Assembly: GCA_027593235.1 (NCBI GenBank)
Contig: JAQCIU010000041.1
Span: forward strand, 1-26,629
Source: Chloroflexota bacterium
GTDB taxonomy: Bacteria > Chloroflexota > Dehalococcoidia > UBA2979
Reading direction: 5' to 3'
DNA: 26,629 bases
The position numbers and the translations under genes are program-made. The notes beneath the pieces are model-generated. The model was given only the letters and a program-made list of their open reading frames with translations, did no database searches and was not told the origin of the DNA. Shown piece by piece: positions 13,530-22,125 of the stretch; within the stretch, counting starts at the first letter, position 1; each line of letters opens with the position of its first letter.

Positions 13530-14057
13530 ATGCCACTGGAGACCGAGTCCCGCGCCGAGATCCGTTCCCTCGTCGCTGATCTGCTCCCGGACGACGGCAA
13601 GCTGCTCACCGCGCTGCACCGCGTCCAGCATCGCTACGGCTATCTCTCACGCGAGGCGATGGAAGTCATCGCCGAACAGCTCGAGATGTTCCCCGCCCAC
13701 GTCTACGGTGCGGCCTCGTTCTACGAGGAATACCGCTTCGAACCGCCACCCCGCACCGTCGTCCGCTGGTGCACCGGCCCCGCCTGCCGCCTCCGCAACG
13801 GCAACGGCATCCGCGACGCGATGCTTGCCACCCTCGGGCTCTCCGAGGTTGGCGACCGCACCGAGGACGGTCGCGCCGGCATCGTCTTCGGCCAGTGCAA
13901 CGGCTCCTGCGAGGCGGCGCCGATGGTCTGGGTCGAAGACAACGTGGAGCACACGCGCCATGTCCACGGCCAGCTCACCGCCGCCAGTGCCATCAAGCTC
14001 GCGCGCGCCATCCGCGACGGCGAAACTCTCGAGGGGGGGCACGAAACTGTCTACTAA
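13530..14057 (+). CDS. NuoE/HydC-like [2Fe-2S] subunit
   Basis: LLTALHRVQHRYGYL, VYGAASFY, CTGPAC (Cx4C), CNGSCEAAP (Cx3C). RBS GAGGA upstream. Confidence 0.93.
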   Translation: MPLETESRAEIRSLVADLLPDDGKLLTALHRVQHRYGYLSREAMEVIAEQLEMFPAHVYGAASFYEEYRFEPPPRTVVRWCTGPACRLRNGNGIRDAMLATLGLSEVGDRTEDGRAGIVFGQCNGSCEAAPMVWVEDNVEHTRHVHGQLTAASAIKLARAIRDGETLEGGHETVY

Positions 14058-15981
14058 CGCGGTCGCCACCCCCGCCGAGGTTCAGGCCCGCTTCGACGCC
14101 ATTCGCGAGGACGCCAACGCCGTCTACGCCGCGTGGCGGAACCCCGAGCGCCCACGTATCGACGTGGCCATCGATACCTCCTCGCTCGCCAACGGCGCCG
14201 CCGCAACGCATGCCGCGATCGCCGCGCTCGCTGAGGAGCGCCACGCCGCCATCGACGTTGGGCGCAACCACGGATACGGCATCCAGTGGCTGCACCCGCT
14301 CGTCACCATCACCTGGCCCGACGGCGCCTCCGTGCTCTACGGCCCCGTCACCGCCGCTGATGCCGCCGCCATCATCGACGAGGCCACCGGCGCCGCCGGC
14401 GGGGCCTCGAGGCTTGCCATCGGCACCCTCGCCGGCGAGCGCGCCGGCGTCCCCCCGATCCGCGATCACCCCTTCTTTGCCAGCGAGCCCGCCGCGCGCC
14501 GGATCATGGCCAACCTCGGGTTCACCGACCCCGAGTCGATGGAGCACTACATCGGCGCCGGCGGCTGGGCCGCCTTCGCCCGCATGCTCTACCGCGGCCA
14601 GCAGCCGCAGGCAGTGCGCCAAGAGTTGATCGACGCCTCGGTCGTCGGCCGCGGTGGCGCCTCGTTCCCTGCCGGCGTGAAGTGGAACTTCCTCGCCGGC
14701 GCGCCGGGCGACGAGCATTACGTCGTCTGCAACGCTGACGAGGGCGACCCCGGCGCGTGGGTGAACCGCGTCGTCCTCGAGGGCGATCCGCACCTCCTCG
14801 TCGAGGGCATGGCGATCGCCGCCTTCGCGACCGCCTCCAAGCGCGGCTTCATCTACATCCGCGAGGAGTACCCGCTCGGCGTTGAACGCACTGAACAGGC
14901 AATTCGTCAGGCGGAGGAAGCCGGACTCCTCGGCGACAACATCCTCGGCACCGAGTTCTCCTTCAAGCTCGAGGTCGTCAAGGGCGCCGGCGCCTACGTC
15001 TGCGGCGAAGAGACCGGGTTGCTGTCCTCCATCCAGGACAGCCGCGGCATGCCGCGCGTGAAGCCACCGTTCCCCGCCCAGGCCGGCGTGTTCATGAAGC
15101 CGTCCAACGTCAACAACGTCGAGACCTACGCCAACGCCCCCTGGGTCCTGCGTCACGGCCACGAGTGGTACCTGCAAGAGGGCACCGAGCAGATGCGTGG
15201 TACCCGCATCTTCTCCTTCTCCGGCGACATCCCGTACGCCGGCTTCATGGAGCTGCCGTTCGGCGCTCCGATGGCCGCAATTCTCGATGCCTGTGGTGGG
15301 ATCACCACGGGCCGACTGAAGGCGATCCAGTCTGGCGGTCCGCTCGGCAGTTTCGTGCCGGCCTCGGCGCTGCCGTCGCTCGTGCTCCAGAACTCCTCGT
15401 TCGCGCCGTACGACGCCATCATGGGTGCCGGTGGCATCGTCTTCGTCTCCGATCAGACCCACCTCGTGATCCTGAACGAACTCTTCTCCTGGTTCGTCGA
15501 AGAGGAATCCTGCGGCCGCTGCACTACCTGTCACGGTGGCAACCAGCGCCAGACCGAGATCTTCCGCCGCATCCTCGATGGCAATGGCCGTCGCGAGGAC
15601 GCGATCAACCTCAAGCTGATCGATGACACCCTCCAGTCCTCGAACTGCGTCCACGGCCAGTTCAGCCCCAAGATCATGCGCAACCTGCTGCAGCACTTCC
15701 GTGCCGACTACGACCAGCTCACCCTCGAACGCAGCGATCCCACGCTCACCATCCCCGCGATGACCTCGTTCCGCGTCGCCAACTCGCGCGATCCAAAGGT
15801 CGAGGACGCCGTCGCCATCTGCCCGGTCGACGCCTTCCGCGGAACCGCTGGCAACCGCTCGATCGACGACGCCGCCTGCATCCGCTGCGGCGCCTGCACC
15901 GACCTCGCACCGGGCGCGATCGTCCGTGAGCCGAAGGCCCTCGGTTCCGCGCCGATGCCGGTGATGGCCGCCCGGCGCTAG
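14047..15981 (+). CDS. NuoF/HydB-like FMN/NADH-binding subunit with a C-terminal ferredoxin domain; probable CTG start
   Basis: GRGGASFPAGVKW, CNADEGDPGA, YIREEY, GAGAYVCGEET, PRVKPPFP, NNVETYAN, GGPLG, ESCGRCTTC...C, CIRCGAC. The ORF-track start at 13708 lies deep inside nuoE. CTG 14047 follows GAGGGGGGG and overlaps the nuoE stop. Confidence 0.9.
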   Translation: MSTNAVATPAEVQARFDAIREDANAVYAAWRNPERPRIDVAIDTSSLANGAAATHAAIAALAEERHAAIDVGRNHGYGIQWLHPLVTITWPDGASVLYGPVTAADAAAIIDEATGAAGGASRLAIGTLAGERAGVPPIRDHPFFASEPAARRIMANLGFTDPESMEHYIGAGGWAAFARMLYRGQQPQAVRQELIDASVVGRGGASFPAGVKWNFLAGAPGDEHYVVCNADEGDPGAWVNRVVLEGDPHLLVEGMAIAAFATASKRGFIYIREEYPLGVERTEQAIRQAEEAGLLGDNILGTEFSFKLEVVKGAGAYVCGEETGLLSSIQDSRGMPRVKPPFPAQAGVFMKPSNVNNVETYANAPWVLRHGHEWYLQEGTEQMRGTRIFSFSGDIPYAGFMELPFGAPMAAILDACGGITTGRLKAIQSGGPLGSFVPASALPSLVLQNSSFAPYDAIMGAGGIVFVSDQTHLVILNELFSWFVEEESCGRCTTCHGGNQRQTEIFRRILDGNGRREDAINLKLIDDTLQSSNCVHGQFSPKIMRNLLQHFRADYDQLTLERSDPTLTIPAMTSFRVANSRDPKVEDAVAICPVDAFRGTAGNRSIDDAACIRCGACTDLAPGAIVREPKALGSAPMPVMAARR

Positions 15982-19222: not shown

Positions 19223-19255
19223 GCGTTAGCAGGTGGCCACCGGTGGAGCTGGTAG

Positions 19256-19852
19256 ATGGTGAGCAGCCGAGTTGGGACGGACACAGCGCCGTTGTACTCC
19301 GAGGAAGTGAGTCCCCCTCGGTGGTTCGTTGGTCTGCGTGTCGGTGTCGTGGTCGTGCTGTTGGTCCCGATCGTCTCGCGGTATTCGGTTCCGCTGTCGT
19401 TGCCCCCCGGCGCTCTCGTTGCTGTGCTCCTCGCGGCGGCCGGCGGGTGGCTGTATTGGACGCAGCGTGTGATCGGCACCCGCAGCATCCTGATTCAGCG
19501 GGGCTCGATGATCTTGCTAAAGGGGCCGCTGGATTTTCTGTCCTACGCAAACACGAACTACCCCGCACTCGCATCAGGGGACTCGGGACCGCTGGCAACG
19601 GGCATCGTGCTAGGTCGAAGCTCGCTCGTGCGGGCTGACCGCCTGCCGCTCATTGGTCACCTGCTTCCGCCAGTCCGCGACTGGTGGCCGTTCCGCAAGA
19701 CGTTTCACGTGTCGATGGTCCGCACGGGAGTCGAGATTCGGACGGATCGGGGCAGACGGCATCGCTTCTGGGTGTCCACGAGGCACCCGGACCAGGTGAT
19801 CGACGCCTCGCGCCTGGCGGGTGCCCGGATCGGCGCGTCGACGCCGGACTGA
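19256..19852 (+). CDS. Hypothetical membrane protein, DUF3093-like
   Basis: Two N-terminal TM helices. LYSEEVSPPRW at the start and FWVSTRHP near the end resemble DUF3093 termini. GGAG upstream; fills the gap on the operon strand. Confidence 0.6.
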   Translation: MVSSRVGTDTAPLYSEEVSPPRWFVGLRVGVVVVLLVPIVSRYSVPLSLPPGALVAVLLAAAGGWLYWTQRVIGTRSILIQRGSMILLKGPLDFLSYANTNYPALASGDSGPLATGIVLGRSSLVRADRLPLIGHLLPPVRDWWPFRKTFHVSMVRTGVEIRTDRGRRHRFWVSTRHPDQVIDASRLAGARIGASTPD

Positions 19853-19912
19853 CGTCCTGATCGGGGCCGTGTCGGTGTTGGGCTAGACTGCCCTGATGTG
19901 AGAGGAGCAGCG

Positions 19913-21004
19913 ATGACCGCGGCATCCGATAGGATCACACTCCCAATTCCCGACATCTACGCGCAGGCCCACGCCGCCGCGCTCGCCGGCTTCGTCCGGC
20001 CGGGCAGCCACCTCGATGGCCCCACCCGGCGCGCGATCGTCGAGGAGTCGCGAGCGGCCCGCGACTGCGCGCACTGCGCCGCCCGTGCCGAGGCGCTCTC
20101 CGCCGCGGTGGTAGACGGCGCCCACTCGACCGTCAGCGACCTCTCGCCACACCTCGTCGAGCTCGTCCACCGGCTCACCACCGACCCGGGCCGCCTGACC
20201 CACGCGTGGTTCGAGGGGACCATCGCCGGCGGCGTCACCGAACCCCAGTACGTCGAGATCGCCGGCTTGATCGGCACCTCGACGATCGCCGACACCTGGA
20301 CGACCGCCCTCGTTGGTGCCCCACCGGTGTTGCCGGCGGCGGAGCAACGAACTCCGAGTGGGGAAACGAACCCCCATCTCGCCGACATCGGTGCCTATGT
20401 GGGTGTCATGGACCTCGAACACCCGCTTCCGAGGTTCAAGGGCGCCCGCCAGTCCGCCAACATCACCCGCGCGCTCGCCCTCGTCCCCTCCGCCGTCGAC
20501 GAGTTCTGGGACCTCTTCATGCCCCACTACCGTCCGATGGCCACCGAGGACGGCGACGAGATGCAGCGCCCGCAGATCGAGCTGGTCGCCTCACGGACCT
20601 CCGCGCTCAACGAGTGCTTCTACTGAACGACCTTCCACTCAGACGCCCTCCGTGCGAGCGGCGAAGCACTCGATGAGGCCTACGAACTCGGCGCGGTTAC
20701 CCGTCAGGTCGACTCGGACGGCGGCGTCCGCCACGGCGCGTACCTGCTCGAACTGACCGAGGCGGTTATCAAGCGCCGTCCCGACGCGGTGGCCACCCTC
20801 CGAGGGCAGGGTGTCGCACTGCTCGGTGAGCACGGTTTCGTGCGCGCGATCGGGGTCGCCGCCGGCTTCGACGGCATCAACCGCGTCGCCGATGCGATTG
20901 GCATCCCGCTCGACGACCGCTTCTCCGCCCTCGATGACTCATTCTGGTCCGCCACGCACATCAACGAGTTCTCCGAGGGCGCTGTCGTCCGCATCCGGAG
21001 CTGA
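19913..21004 (+). CDS. AhpD/alkylhydroperoxidase-related protein with in-frame UGA (probable selenocysteine, U238); 363 aa
   Basis: ORF-track entries 19898-20626 and 20789-21004 are in the same frame, and only TGA 20624-20626 interrupts it. Readthrough gives RPQIELVASRTSALNECFY-U-TTFH, matching the AhpD CxxC-xxx-H motif. Second motif CAHC near the N-terminus. AGGAG RBS before ATG 19913; TAGACT -10-like hexamer at 19884-19889. Confidence 0.85.
20644..20663 (+). other. Candidate bacterial SECIS hairpin
   Basis: CGCC-CTC [loop CGTGC] GAG-(C bulge)-GGCG. The loop starts 24 nt after the UGA, with G at loop position 2 followed by U. Confidence 0.6.
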
Positions 21005-21125
21005 GCCCCCTCAGGGGCCACTGAACGTGGGGAAACCCGCCGATGGTCACCACAGACTCTGTCATCGGCTTGTAAGGACGGCGGCGTAGGCTCCAATGAC
21101 TCGGAACGTTCCCCCGGAGGCCTTG

Positions 21126-22051: not shown

Positions 22052-22125
<74 letters not shown>

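What the first reader, a model, noticed from the sequence alone, without database searches (positions are those of the whole stretch)
19913..21004. Hidden selenoprotein: multi-domain AhpD-like enzyme with CxxU, split in two by standard gene calling
Seen: the apparent stop at 20624-20626 falls exactly at the second Cys position of the AhpD motif (E-L-x7-N-E-C-F-Y-[UGA]-T-T-F-H). The frame continues for 125 sense codons with normal codon bias and AhpD-like sequence (IGVAAGFDGINRVADAIGIPLD), and the downstream part has no convincing RBS/start. A second CxxC (CAHC) lies near the N-terminus. Knowledge: bacterial UGA-to-Sec recoding needs SelA/B/C/D and a 3'-adjacent SECIS. AhpD-like CxxU selenoproteins have been predicted before, and I recall CFYU-type homologues being annotated, so the class is not new, though I know of no biochemical characterisation. 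Inference: a 363-aa Sec-dependent peroxidase/reductase with a possible CxxC-to-CxxU relay.
Basis: partly seen in the sequence, partly recalled or inferred. Interest (0 to 1): 0.85.

Follow-up and report, generated by a model that had tools for sequence, protein, structure and literature searches.

The report
Known AhpD-like selenoprotein, truncated by gene callers
This gene encodes a 363-residue redox protein whose in-frame TGA is read as selenocysteine; it belongs to a selenoprotein family first reported in 2005 and already curated by NCBI, so it is real but ordinary, although most gene catalogues cut it short at the TGA.

Summary
ATG 19913 to TGA 21004 is one frame with a single internal TGA at 20624-20626, in the motif C-F-Y-[TGA]-T-T-F-H. 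The read-through protein scores 343.5 bits (cut-off 175) on NCBIfam NF041238 [quoted passage not shown]. A 2026 review equates this model with "hypothetical protein 1" of the 2005 Sargasso Sea selenoproteome.

- **Same codon in relatives:** all 19 family genes found in related genomes have TGA in this column. Of 31 full-length database relatives, 25 have Cys there.
- **SECIS:** a conserved hairpin (20644-20663) lies 17 nt after the TGA. Its Leu, Arg and Ser codons are frozen at synonymous sites, unlike 36 other conserved columns.
- **Sec machinery:** the genome has selA, selB, selD and tRNA-Sec.
- **Architecture:** two AhpD-like lobes, Sestrin2-like.
- **N-terminal CxxC:** it belongs to a C-C-H-H tetrad that 6 of 19 Sec forms have lost entirely, so an obligatory CxxC-to-CxxU relay is unlikely.

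Verdict: a genuine selenoprotein of a known family. Its biochemistry is untested. Interest is low.

The parts
19902..19907 (+). Shine-Dalgarno GAGGAG, 5 nt upstream of the ATG
   Evidence: Read from the sequence.
19913..21004 (+). Complete selenoprotein gene: 363 codons including UGA-Sec, plus the terminal TGA stop at 21002-21004
   Evidence: NF041238 scores 343.5 bits against a cut-off of 175 and covers model positions 5-356 of 357.
19913..20392 (+). N-terminal lobe (about residues 1-160): a divergent AhpD/CMD-like helical domain
   Evidence: Model of residues 1-170 folded alone has pLDDT 93.9. Its top 7 structural matches are all AhpD/CMD folds, Z 7.9-5.5 over residues ~7-136. Foldseek ranks the same families first, at E >= 0.045. 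No sequence match to Pfam or the PDB.
20066..20077 (+). N-lobe C52-A-H-C55 motif; with H71 (20123-20125) and H86 (20168-20170) it forms a conserved C-C-H-H tetrad
   Evidence: The tetrad reads CCHH in 190 of 203 family sequences. Among 19 Sec forms, 13 have all four residues and 6 have lost C52, C55 and H71 together.
20405..21001 (+). C-terminal lobe (about residues 165-363): AhpD / 'peroxidase-related' domain carrying the active site
   Evidence: A family profile against PDB sequences gives 6k40 at 1.2e-18, 2oyo at 2.4e-16 and 3c1l at 1.7e-15 over profile positions 162-351. Pfam CMD scores 27.6 bits, above its 23-bit cut-off, at residues 219-262. Structural matches reach Z 11.4-7.6.
20579..20638 (+). 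AhpD-type signature E223-x11-C235-F-Y-U238-x3-H242
   Evidence: C235, U238 and H242 are present in 19 of 19 Sec forms; E223 in 18 of 19, with Asp in one. The signature residues are as described for AhpD in PMC3141380.
20624..20626 (+). UGA read as selenocysteine (U238)
   Evidence: TGA in 19 of 19 family genes. Cys in 25 of 31 full-length relatives. Sec machinery present.
20644..20663 (+). Putative SECIS hairpin: 5' arm 20644-20650, apical loop C-G-U-G-C 20651-20655, 3' arm 20656-20663 with C20659 bulged; the stem starts 17 nt after the UGA
   Evidence: Sub-window folds. The core CUC...GAG is present in all 17 aligned Sec forms, and the same core is in L055 and L056. Codon entropy is 0, 0 and 0.35 bits at L246, R247 and S249 against >= 0.91 bits at 36 other conserved columns.

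Best explanation
Window 19913-21004 is a single gene for a 363-aa selenoprotein of the curated family NF041238 (AhpD_rel_CFYUT, the 'hypothetical protein 1' of the Sargasso Sea selenoproteome).

Shown here:
- The internal UGA (20624-20626) occupies the second position of an AhpD-type E-x11-C-x-x-[C/U]-x3-H signature.
- It is TGA in every family gene of the related genomes examined and Cys in most full-length database homologues.
- It is followed, after 17 nt, by a positionally conserved hairpin with a small G/U-containing apical loop.
- The genome encodes SelA, SelB, SelD and tRNA-Sec(UCA).

Inferred for translation: SelB carrying Sec-tRNA-Sec binds the hairpin at 20644-20663 and inserts selenocysteine at codon 238. 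Ribosomes that fail to do so release a 237-aa fragment.

Inferred for chemistry (my odds about 0.4-0.5): the C-terminal lobe acts as an AhpD-like thiol/selenol oxidoreductase. The U238 selenolate attacks an oxidised substrate, either a hydroperoxide or the sulfenic acid or disulfide of a partner peroxidase. C235 then resolves the adduct into a selenenylsulfide, and an external dithiol donor re-reduces it.

The N-terminal lobe is a second, divergent AhpD-like domain, which gives a Sestrin/YciW-like two-lobed fold. Its C52/C55/H71/H86 tetrad is most likely an accessory metal-binding or structural site, not an obligatory electron relay.
For: - **Family:** 343.5 bits against a cut-off of 175; 334.9 bits on the genomic DNA with '1 TGA'.
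- **Sec/Cys pairing:** 15 of 15 matches above cut-off among 61 genomes have one TGA, and 16 of 16 among 99 genomes of the taxonomic family. The union is 19 distinct genes, all with CFYU. Of 31 representatives of at least 320 aa, 25 have Cys at this column. All 12 Cys forms scanned pass the NF041238 cut-off.
- **Coding downstream of the UGA:** invariant H242, L246, S249, L278, A284, F319, R324, G330 and P332.
- **SECIS:** codons L246 (CTC 15/15), R247 (CGT 13/13) and S249 (AGC 14, AGT 1) have the three lowest codon entropies of 39 conserved degenerate columns. Third-position major-allele frequencies are 1.0, 1.0, 1.0 and 0.94 there, against 0.35-0.76 in the codons on either side. A hairpin forms in all 15 sub-windows folded. 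Outer stem pairs differ between subfamilies (GCC/GGC against UG/CA) but pairing is kept.
- **Machinery:** selD 359 bits, selA 544 bits, selB 299.7 bits and tRNA-Sec 72.7 bits, all above cut-off; anticodon tca.
- **TGA is otherwise a normal stop:** 8 of 14 genes end in it, and none of the 11 other plus-strand genes checked has an internal TGA.
- **Assembled contigs:** no other letter is listed at 20624-20626. One contig of X1 and two of X3 cover it with 0 differences.
- **Fold:** pLDDT 90.6. C-lobe matches AhpD-type structures. The whole model matches Sestrin2 5cuf_A at Z 15.3, rmsd 3.7 over 236 residues. The N-lobe alone matches AhpD/CMD folds.
- **Relatives with experiments (passages read):** M. 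tuberculosis AhpD uses Glu118, Cys130, His132, Cys133 and His137 (PMC3141380). A D. radiodurans DR1765 mutant is H2O2-sensitive and complementation depends on the CxxC cysteines (PMC8945050).
Against: - No direct evidence of Sec insertion or of expression: no RNA run was listed, and nothing was tested at the protein level.
- The hairpin is not thermodynamically outstanding. The 77 nt after the UGA fold worse than shuffles (z +1.69). The 26-nt hairpin window ranks only at about the 10th percentile (median) of windows within its own gene, and at the 56th percentile in one relative, L027.
- Rfam has no matching SECIS model.
- The L-R-x-S peptide is itself conserved, so part of the nucleotide conservation is protein constraint.
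- The only Cys-form DNA available (L053, n = 1) also folds into a small hairpin there (-6.8 kcal/mol), so that control is uninformative.
- The contigs covering the TGA come from runs flagged as possible sources of this DNA, so they are not independent.
- Function: TIGR01926 (47 against 81.8 bits) and TIGR00778 (23.7 against 27.8 bits) are below their cut-offs. No AhpC/peroxiredoxin gene lies in the window. No member of NF041238 was found to have been assayed.
- N-lobe structural matches are modest (Z < 8), and the lobe-against-lobe profile comparison is not significant (probability 3.5 %).
Confidence: 0.9

Rival explanations
1. The protein is a genuine selenoprotein, but its substrate is not a peroxide or peroxiredoxin. 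The CxxU centre would perform another reductive chemistry known from the CMD/AhpD fold, for example thiol-mediated reductive dehalogenation as in the debrominase Bmp8, or a role in sulfur/cysteine metabolism as proposed for two-lobed YciW-type proteins.
For: Bmp8 (6ohi_A) matches the C-lobe as well as the peroxidase-related structures do: Z 11.2 against 11.4, a tie. It also appears in the PDB sequence-profile list at E 0.16. No AhpC/Prx partner is encoded nearby. Bacterial two-AhpD-domain proteins such as YciW are described as Sestrin analogues in PMC11429811 (passages read). The link of YciW to sulfur metabolism is my recollection and comes from no call.
Against: The full AhpD proton-relay signature E-x11-C-x-x-U-x3-H is conserved. 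The best sequence relatives with solved structures are AhpD/peroxidase-related proteins (1e-18 to 5e-14). A shared fold alone shows no function.
Confidence: 0.15
2. The TGA is a real stop. Either the gene is a pseudogene or sequencing error, or only the 237-aa N-terminal product is made and the downstream 125 codons are a remnant.
For: Gene callers treat it this way: all 52 nearest relatives are fragments. Some termination at UGA is expected for any selenoprotein gene; that is general knowledge, not a call.
Against: TGA is kept at the same column in 19 of 19 genes from 14 different genomes. The downstream part is conserved as protein, with 9 invariant columns, and completes the AhpD domain and its catalytic His242. 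Truncation at Y237 would remove the second redox residue. Contigs show no variant at the codon.
Confidence: 0.02
3. There are two separate genes: an N-terminal gene ending at TGA 20624 and an independently initiated downstream gene.
For: Short downstream ORFs of 98-123 aa are present as separate entries in the protein library: P0065, P0105 and P0163.
Against: The first possible in-frame start after the TGA is GTG 20789, 55 codons downstream. That would skip the conserved H242, L246, S249 and L278. Cys forms are single polypeptides of 330-430 aa. The structure model places both sides of the TGA in one domain with high confidence.
Confidence: 0.01
4. The UGA is decoded as a standard amino acid (Trp, Gly or Cys) by genome-wide or near-cognate recoding, not as Sec.
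For: None specific. Cys forms of the family exist, so a Cys at this site would be functional.
Against: TGA terminates 8 of 14 genes in the window, and none of the 11 other plus-strand genes checked has an internal TGA. A complete Sec machinery is present and selD itself carries an in-frame TGA. The synonymous sites under the downstream hairpin are frozen, which a plain sense codon would not require.
Confidence: 0.02

Closest known systems
NCBIfam NF041238 'AhpD_rel_CFYUT', alkylhydroperoxidase-related (seleno)protein = 'hypothetical protein 1' of the Sargasso Sea selenoproteome (Zhang, Fomenko & Gladyshev 2005, PMC1088965; listed in the 2026 review PMC13188914)
   Same: The window protein is a member: 343.5 bits against a cut-off of 175 over the full model length, with the same C-F-Y-U-T motif. 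The 2005 paper reports a CXXU motif, Cys homologues and a predicted SECIS (passages read). The review ties the accession to that family.
   Different: Nothing essential differs. [quoted passage not shown] The AhpD signature, the two-lobed fold and the N-lobe tetrad described here go beyond the passages I read. Figures are not held, so I could not compare its drawn SECIS with the hairpin here.
Single-domain AhpD-like CxxU selenoproteins ('AhpD-like 1', COG2128/TIGR01926; 'AhpD-like 2', PF02627) of marine metagenomes (PMC2398784)
   Same: Same fold for the C-lobe, same CxxU placement of Sec and the same habitat type. 299 and 70 sequences were found in the GOS data (table read). Related genomes also carry such shorter genes with CRYU or CHYU motifs.
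   Different: Those are about 180-200 aa with one lobe. This family is about 360 aa with an extra N-terminal AhpD-like lobe. TIGR01926 scores only 47 bits, below its 81.8-bit cut-off.
Mycobacterium tuberculosis AhpD (1gu9/1knc) and P. aeruginosa PA0269
   Same: All-helical CMD/AhpD fold: Z 9.0 for the C-lobe and 6.7 for the N-lobe. The helix-turn-helix carries E-x11-C-x-x-C-x3-H, matching Glu118, Cys130, Cys133 and His137. Like PA0269 (C-A-Y-C), the window has Tyr at the third position.
   Different: Sec replaces the second Cys. The protein has two lobes in one chain. There is no adjacent ahpC. Sequence similarity is very low (E 0.036 for 1gu9 with the family profile).
Deinococcus radiodurans AhpD-like DR1765 (PDB 6k40) and the structural-genomics 'peroxidase-related' proteins 2oyo, 2pfx, 2prr and 3c1l
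   Same: These are the best solved relatives of the C-lobe: profile E-values from 1.2e-18 to 5.2e-14, and TM-score normalised to the target of 0.69. DR1765 loss gives H2O2 sensitivity that depends on its CxxC (PMC8945050).
   Different: They are single-lobe Cys proteins of about 190 aa, with 21-24 % identity.
Sestrin2 (5cuf) and bacterial two-AhpD-domain 'Sestrin analogues' such as E. coli YciW (PMC11429811)
   Same: Two AhpD-like lobes in one chain. Sestrin2 is the best whole-model match: Z 15.3, rmsd 3.7 over 236 residues, model residues 9-332.
   Different: There is no sequence relationship: no Pfam hit other than CMD at E <= 1. The protein sequence has no DDYDY-type hinge. The cysteine/selenocysteine active site is retained here, whereas the review says the hinge replaces it in Sestrin. 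Any relationship to YciW itself was not tested.

Membership tests
NCBIfam NF041238 AhpD_rel_CFYUT | Whole-protein HMM score above the curated cut-off of 175 bits, over the full-length model | tested here: met
   343.5 bits, model positions 5-356 of 357. 334.9 bits on genomic DNA.
NCBIfam NF041238 AhpD_rel_CFYUT | C-F-Y-[U/C]-T motif, with Sec or Cys at the fourth position | tested here: met
   The window reads N-E-C-F-Y-U-T. The motif is present in 19 of 19 Sec forms, and 25 of 31 long relatives have Cys.
Bacterial selenoprotein gene | In-frame UGA aligned with Cys in homologues, with conserved coding sequence on both sides | tested here: met
   12 of 12 Cys forms scanned are in the same family.
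Bacterial selenoprotein gene | SECIS stem-loop shortly downstream of the UGA, with a small apical loop containing G | tested here: met
   A conserved hairpin at 20644-20663 with loop CGUGC; synonymous sites are frozen. [quoted passage not shown] Caveats: stability is only moderate, there is no Rfam match, and SelB binding was not tested.
Bacterial selenoprotein gene | Genome encodes SelA, SelB, SelD and tRNA-Sec | tested here: met
   All four score above their curated cut-offs. ARAGORN finds tRNA-SeC with anticodon tca.
Bacterial selenoprotein gene | Selenium physically present in the protein | not testable with these tools
   This needs 75Se labelling or mass spectrometry.
AhpD / CMD superfamily (PF02627) | Pfam CMD domain above the gathering score, and an AhpD-type fold | tested here: met
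   PF02627 scores 27.6 bits against 23. The C-lobe matches at Z 11.4-7.6 and PDB profile hits reach 1e-18.
AhpD / CMD superfamily (PF02627) | Proton-relay signature E-x11-C-x-x-C-x3-H | tested here: met
   E223, C235, U238 (in place of Cys) and H242 are conserved in 18-19 of 19 Sec forms. The signature is from PMC3141380.
TIGR01926 'peroxidase-related enzyme' / TIGR00778 AhpD core domain | Score above the curated cut-off | tested here: not met
   47.0 against 81.8 bits and 23.7 against 27.8 bits. The protein is related to these families but not a member.
AhpC/AhpD alkylhydroperoxidase system | Partner peroxiredoxin AhpC and lipoamide-dependent re-reduction | not tested
   No Prx/AhpC gene lies in the 26.6-kb window.
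Sestrin (Pfam PA26) | Sequence membership in the Sestrin family | tested here: not met
   Pfam lists only CMD at E <= 1. The resemblance is architectural only (Z 15.3).

The most novel reading that the evidence does not exclude
NF041238 proteins may be two-centre enzymes. A Cys2His2 metal or redox site in the N-lobe (C52, C55, H71, H86; CCHH in 190 of 203 sequences) would cooperate with the CxxU centre of the C-lobe in a prokaryotic Sestrin-like scaffold. The chemistry would differ from peroxide detoxification, for example selenium-dependent reductive dehalogenation of the Bmp8 type. The six tetrad-less Sec forms would then represent a functionally distinct subfamily.
Probability: 0.1. Interest if true: 0.5.

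Novelty: already known. Interest (0 to 1): 0.2.

Why it matters
The scientific interest is limited. The family has been known as a selenoprotein since 2005, and NCBI's annotation pipeline holds a model named after this very motif.

The practical point is about annotation. In the large metagenome protein collections searched here, this family is almost always stored as a truncated 'hypothetical protein'. All 52 nearest relatives are fragments, and 103 of the top 150 representatives end at the Sec codon. Catalogues built with standard gene callers therefore systematically miss the catalytic half.

Three small additions may help whoever characterises the family, which I did not find to have been assayed:
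- the precisely placed, conserved SECIS core (CUC-CGUGC-GAG, 24 nt after the UGA);
- the Sestrin-like two-lobed fold;
- the all-or-none C-C-H-H tetrad in the N-lobe.

Tried and rejected
- **Rfam scan** of 19800-21100 at E <= 10: only a chance lncRNA hit and no SECIS family.
- **MFE fold** of the 77 nt after the UGA: no better than shuffles. I therefore moved to comparative evidence.
- **The search for related loci in genome contigs:** one locus only. With alignment A2 on metagenome contigs the tool returned an error, because no stretch was conserved enough. With the single Cys form P0054 it returned one locus. The intended Cys-form control for synonymous-site freezing is therefore n = 1 and uninformative.
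- **tblastn against plasmids:** no match.
- **Sequencing runs:** no RNA holder was listed, so nothing can be said on expression. The laid runs were contigs only.
- **The search of earlier findings**, by genome words and by sequence: nothing.
- **hhalign of the N-lobe against the C-lobe:** probability 3.5 %. An internal duplication is not demonstrated by sequence, although the one alignment given places C52xxC55 on C235xxU238.
- **Distances in the model:** coordinates are not exposed, so I could not measure C52/C55 to C235/U238, or the geometry of the tetrad.
- **Gene context:** NUDIX, then the AhpD gene, then the response regulator is conserved only in the closest orthologues. It suggests no partner.
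- **The selD hairpins** were not comparable enough to use as an internal SECIS reference.
- **Sub-threshold match:** one hit in G012 (28.3 bits) has an internal TAG. It is a distant paralogue and was not examined.
Full report
**Observation.** The frame that opens at ATG 19913 is preceded by GAGGAG at 19902-19907 and runs to TGA 21002-21004. It holds one internal TGA at 20624-20626, in the context S-A-L-N-E-C-F-Y-[TGA]-T-T-F-H. After the internal TGA the first in-frame start codon is GTG 20789, 55 codons on. CAHC lies at residues 52-55.

**Family.** With the TGA read through, the 363-aa protein matches NCBIfam NF041238 'AhpD_rel_CFYUT, alkylhydroperoxidase-related (seleno)protein', an equivalog model. 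It scores 343.5 bits against a cut-off of 175 and covers model positions 5-356 of 357. Pfam sees only a CMD domain at residues 219-262, at 27.6 bits against a 23-bit cut-off. The related single-domain models TIGR01926 and TIGR00778 stay below their cut-offs. [quoted passage not shown] The 2005 Sargasso Sea paper describes 'hypothetical protein 1' from four sequences. [quoted passage not shown] AhpD-like CxxU selenoproteins in general were among the most abundant families in the GOS data (PMC2398784, table read). The kind is therefore already known and curated.

**Sec/Cys test.** I searched whole genomes with the family model. Among 61 genomes (the window's own plus relatives), 15 of 15 matches above the cut-off carry exactly one in-frame TGA, and they lie in 10 genomes. 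Among 99 genomes of the same taxonomic family, 16 of 16 do, in 12 genomes. In an even sample of 401 genomes of the phylum, only 2 genomes have the family. The union is 19 distinct genes, and in all 19 the TGA sits in the C-F-Y-U column. In a 15-sequence alignment the protein is conserved after the TGA, with invariant H242, L246, S249, L278, A284, F319, R324, G330 and P332.

The word-indexed search of 5.8 billion proteins returned 52 relatives. All are 203-259 aa and cover at most 65 % of the query, and those that carry a name are called 'hypothetical protein', apart from one 'alkylhydroperoxidase family enzyme'. The exhaustive HMMER scan of 1.84 billion representatives found 867 relatives at E <= 0.001. 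Of the best 150, 103 end immediately after C-x-x, which means they were cut at the Sec codon. Three short entries (98-123 aa) are the orphaned C-terminal piece. Of the 31 representatives of at least 320 aa, 25 have Cys at the Sec column, 2 have Gly, 1 has Leu, and 3 stop there. All 12 Cys forms that I scanned pass the NF041238 cut-off, at 247-427 bits.

**SECIS.** Seventeen nucleotides after the UGA the window can form a hairpin. The 5' arm is 20644-20650, the loop C-G-U-G-C is 20651-20655, and the 3' arm is 20656-20663 with C20659 bulged. The core CUC...GAG with a five-base G/U-containing loop is present at the same distance in all 17 aligned genes, and the same core is in the two further loci. 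The outer stem differs between subfamilies (GCC/GGC with a bulge, against UG/CA without one) while pairing is kept.

The strongest evidence is at synonymous sites. Among 39 conserved columns of four- or six-fold degenerate residues, L246 (CTC 15/15), R247 (CGT 13/13) and S249 (AGC 14, AGT 1) have codon entropies of 0, 0 and 0.35 bits. The other 36 columns have at least 0.91 bits and use 3-5 codons. Third-position major-allele frequencies are 1.0, 1.0, 1.0 and 0.94 under the hairpin, against 0.35-0.76 in the codons on either side. [quoted passage not shown]

Several results count against the SECIS reading. Stability is unremarkable: z is +1.69 for the 77-nt stretch, and the hairpin window ranks at about the 10th percentile (median) within its own genes and at the 56th in one relative. 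Rfam has no match. The L-R-x-S peptide is itself conserved. My only Cys-form DNA control is a single sequence, and it also forms a small hairpin.

**Machinery and code.** The window's genome (78 contigs, 89.7 % complete) encodes selD (359 bits, itself with one in-frame TGA), selA (544 bits), selB (299.7 bits) and tRNA-Sec (72.7 bits). All four are above their curated cut-offs, and the tRNA has anticodon tca. TGA is an ordinary stop here: 8 of 14 Pfam-supported genes in the window end in it, and none of the 11 other plus-strand genes checked has an internal TGA. I laid contigs of four runs from four studies on the gene, and no alternative letter was listed at 20624-20626. One contig of X1 spans the whole gene, and two contigs of X3 cover the codon, all with zero differences. 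Both runs are flagged as possible sources of this DNA, so this is weak support.

**Architecture.** An AlphaFold model built from a 37-sequence alignment is confident (pLDDT 90.6, pTM 0.90) and all-helical. The C-terminal half (from about residue 165) matches AhpD-type structures. By sequence profile these are 6k40 at 1.2e-18, 2oyo and 3c1l. By fold, Z is 11.4-7.6, and M. tuberculosis AhpD scores Z 9.0. The best match to the whole model is human Sestrin2, a protein of two AhpD-like lobes: 5cuf_A, Z 15.3, rmsd 3.7 over 236 residues, model residues 9-332.

Folded alone, the N-terminal 170 residues have pLDDT 93.9. Their top seven hits are all AhpD/CMD-fold proteins at Z 7.9-5.5 over residues ~7-136, and unrelated folds follow at Z <= 4.7. 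Foldseek agrees on the families, but only weakly (E >= 0.045). The N-lobe is therefore probably a second, divergent AhpD-like domain. Sequence profiles do not prove an internal duplication (probability 3.5 %). Bacterial proteins with two AhpD-like domains in the Sestrin arrangement, YciW for instance, have been described (PMC11429811, passages read).

**The N-terminal CxxC.** C52 and C55 are conserved together with H71 and H86, and the four read C-C-H-H in 190 of 203 family sequences. Among the 19 Sec forms the pattern is all-or-none. Thirteen have all four residues. Six have lost C52, C55 and H71 together, five of them also H86, and the two G058 (L032) copies also carry long deletions in the intervening loop. 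All 19 keep C235, U238 and H242, and 18 keep E223. This pattern fits an accessory metal-binding or structural site better than an obligatory redox relay to the CxxU centre. That is an inference, and I could not measure distances because coordinates are not exposed.

**Context.** The window also holds a poly(A)/CCA-polymerase head domain, SMC, an FtsY-like SRP GTPase and three membrane proteins (DUF2298, PMT_2, LPG-synthase TM). Further on come an amine oxidase, a NuoF-like fusion, a GFO/IDH/MocA oxidoreductase, a Zn-type dehydrogenase and a double NUDIX protein. Beyond the gene lie an OmpR-type response regulator, tRNA-Cys, a PadR regulator and a polysaccharide deacetylase. There is no peroxiredoxin. 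The order NUDIX, AhpD gene, response regulator recurs in the closest orthologues (L046 and L021/L033; NUDIX is also adjacent in L045). It suggests no partner.

**Mechanism.**
- Shown: one gene; UGA paired with Cys in homologues; a conserved hairpin with frozen synonymous sites; Sec machinery present; an AhpD-type signature E223-x11-C235-x-x-U238-x3-H242.
- Inferred: SelB-dependent Sec insertion at codon 238. Also inferred is an AhpD-like catalytic cycle, in which the selenolate attacks a peroxide or an oxidised partner peroxidase and C235 forms a selenenylsulfide that an external dithiol reduces.
- Basis: the analogy rests on M. tuberculosis AhpD (Glu118, Cys130, His132, Cys133, His137; PMC3141380) and on DR1765, whose loss sensitises D. 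radiodurans to H2O2 in a CxxC-dependent way (PMC8945050).
- Which of the two cysteines of AhpD is the nucleophile was not established from the passages I read.
- A different substrate, for example Bmp8-type dehalogenation (Z 11.2, tied with the peroxidase-related hits), is not excluded.

**Literature limits.** Nine papers in the library hold 'AhpD-like', 'selenoprotein' and 'selenocysteine' together. By their titles and the starts of their abstracts all are bioinformatic surveys or reviews, and I saw no biochemical study of an AhpD-like selenoprotein among them. Figures of the 2005 and 2008 papers are not held, and I opened no supplements. They may contain the family's alignment and drawn SECIS.

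**Verdict.** This is a genuine selenoprotein gene that belongs to a family known since 2005 and curated by NCBI. The finding is ordinary except as an example of systematic truncation in gene catalogues.

Noticed in passing
window 19223-19912: A ~690-bp stretch with an unassigned 198-aa ORF (19256-19852; no Pfam or NCBIfam hit) lies between the NUDIX gene and the selenoprotein gene. tblastn found no counterpart of this ORF in the 14 related loci searched, and in L046 the NUDIX match ends only ~57 nt before the selenoprotein gene's start. The stretch is single-copy in the genome.
   Followed up: partly
L001 (G000:C16:112734-113672, minus strand): The genome's selD itself carries one in-frame TGA (motif ...S-C-A-G-U-A-G-K...) followed by stable hairpins, so SelD here is also a selenoprotein.
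   Followed up: partly
L034, L037, L040, L051 (relatives G037, G017, G035, G003): Shorter AhpD-like genes with C-H-Y-U or C-R-Y-U and an in-frame TGA score below the NF041238 cut-off. They look like single-domain AhpD-like selenoproteins, so these lineages carry several CxxU AhpD paralogues.
   Followed up: no
L032 340-1425 and 1483-2538 (minus strand; G058:C6): Two NF041238 genes lie in tandem, 57 nt apart. Both have TGA and the SECIS core, and both lack the N-lobe C-C-H-H tetrad.
   Followed up: partly
L031 (G014:C12:341299-342198): This copy matches the family model only over positions 18-324. In the alignment it diverges completely near its C-terminus and has an aberrant N-terminus, so it may be frameshifted or decaying.
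   Followed up: no
window 21005-21018: A GC-rich inverted repeat, GCCCC-CTCA-GGGGC, starts directly after the gene's terminal TGA and has no T-run. It may be a terminator-like hairpin. This is read from the sequence only.
   Followed up: no
window 13708-15981: A 757-aa NuoF-like protein (Complex1_51K plus the NADH 4Fe-4S region). It has a ~260-aa N-terminal extension without a family hit and a ferredoxin-like C-terminus. It scores below the NuoF equivalog cut-off, 370.8 against 558.65 bits.
   Followed up: no
window 22052-22125 (minus strand): A tRNA-Cys(GCA) gene lies just downstream of the response regulator.
   Followed up: no
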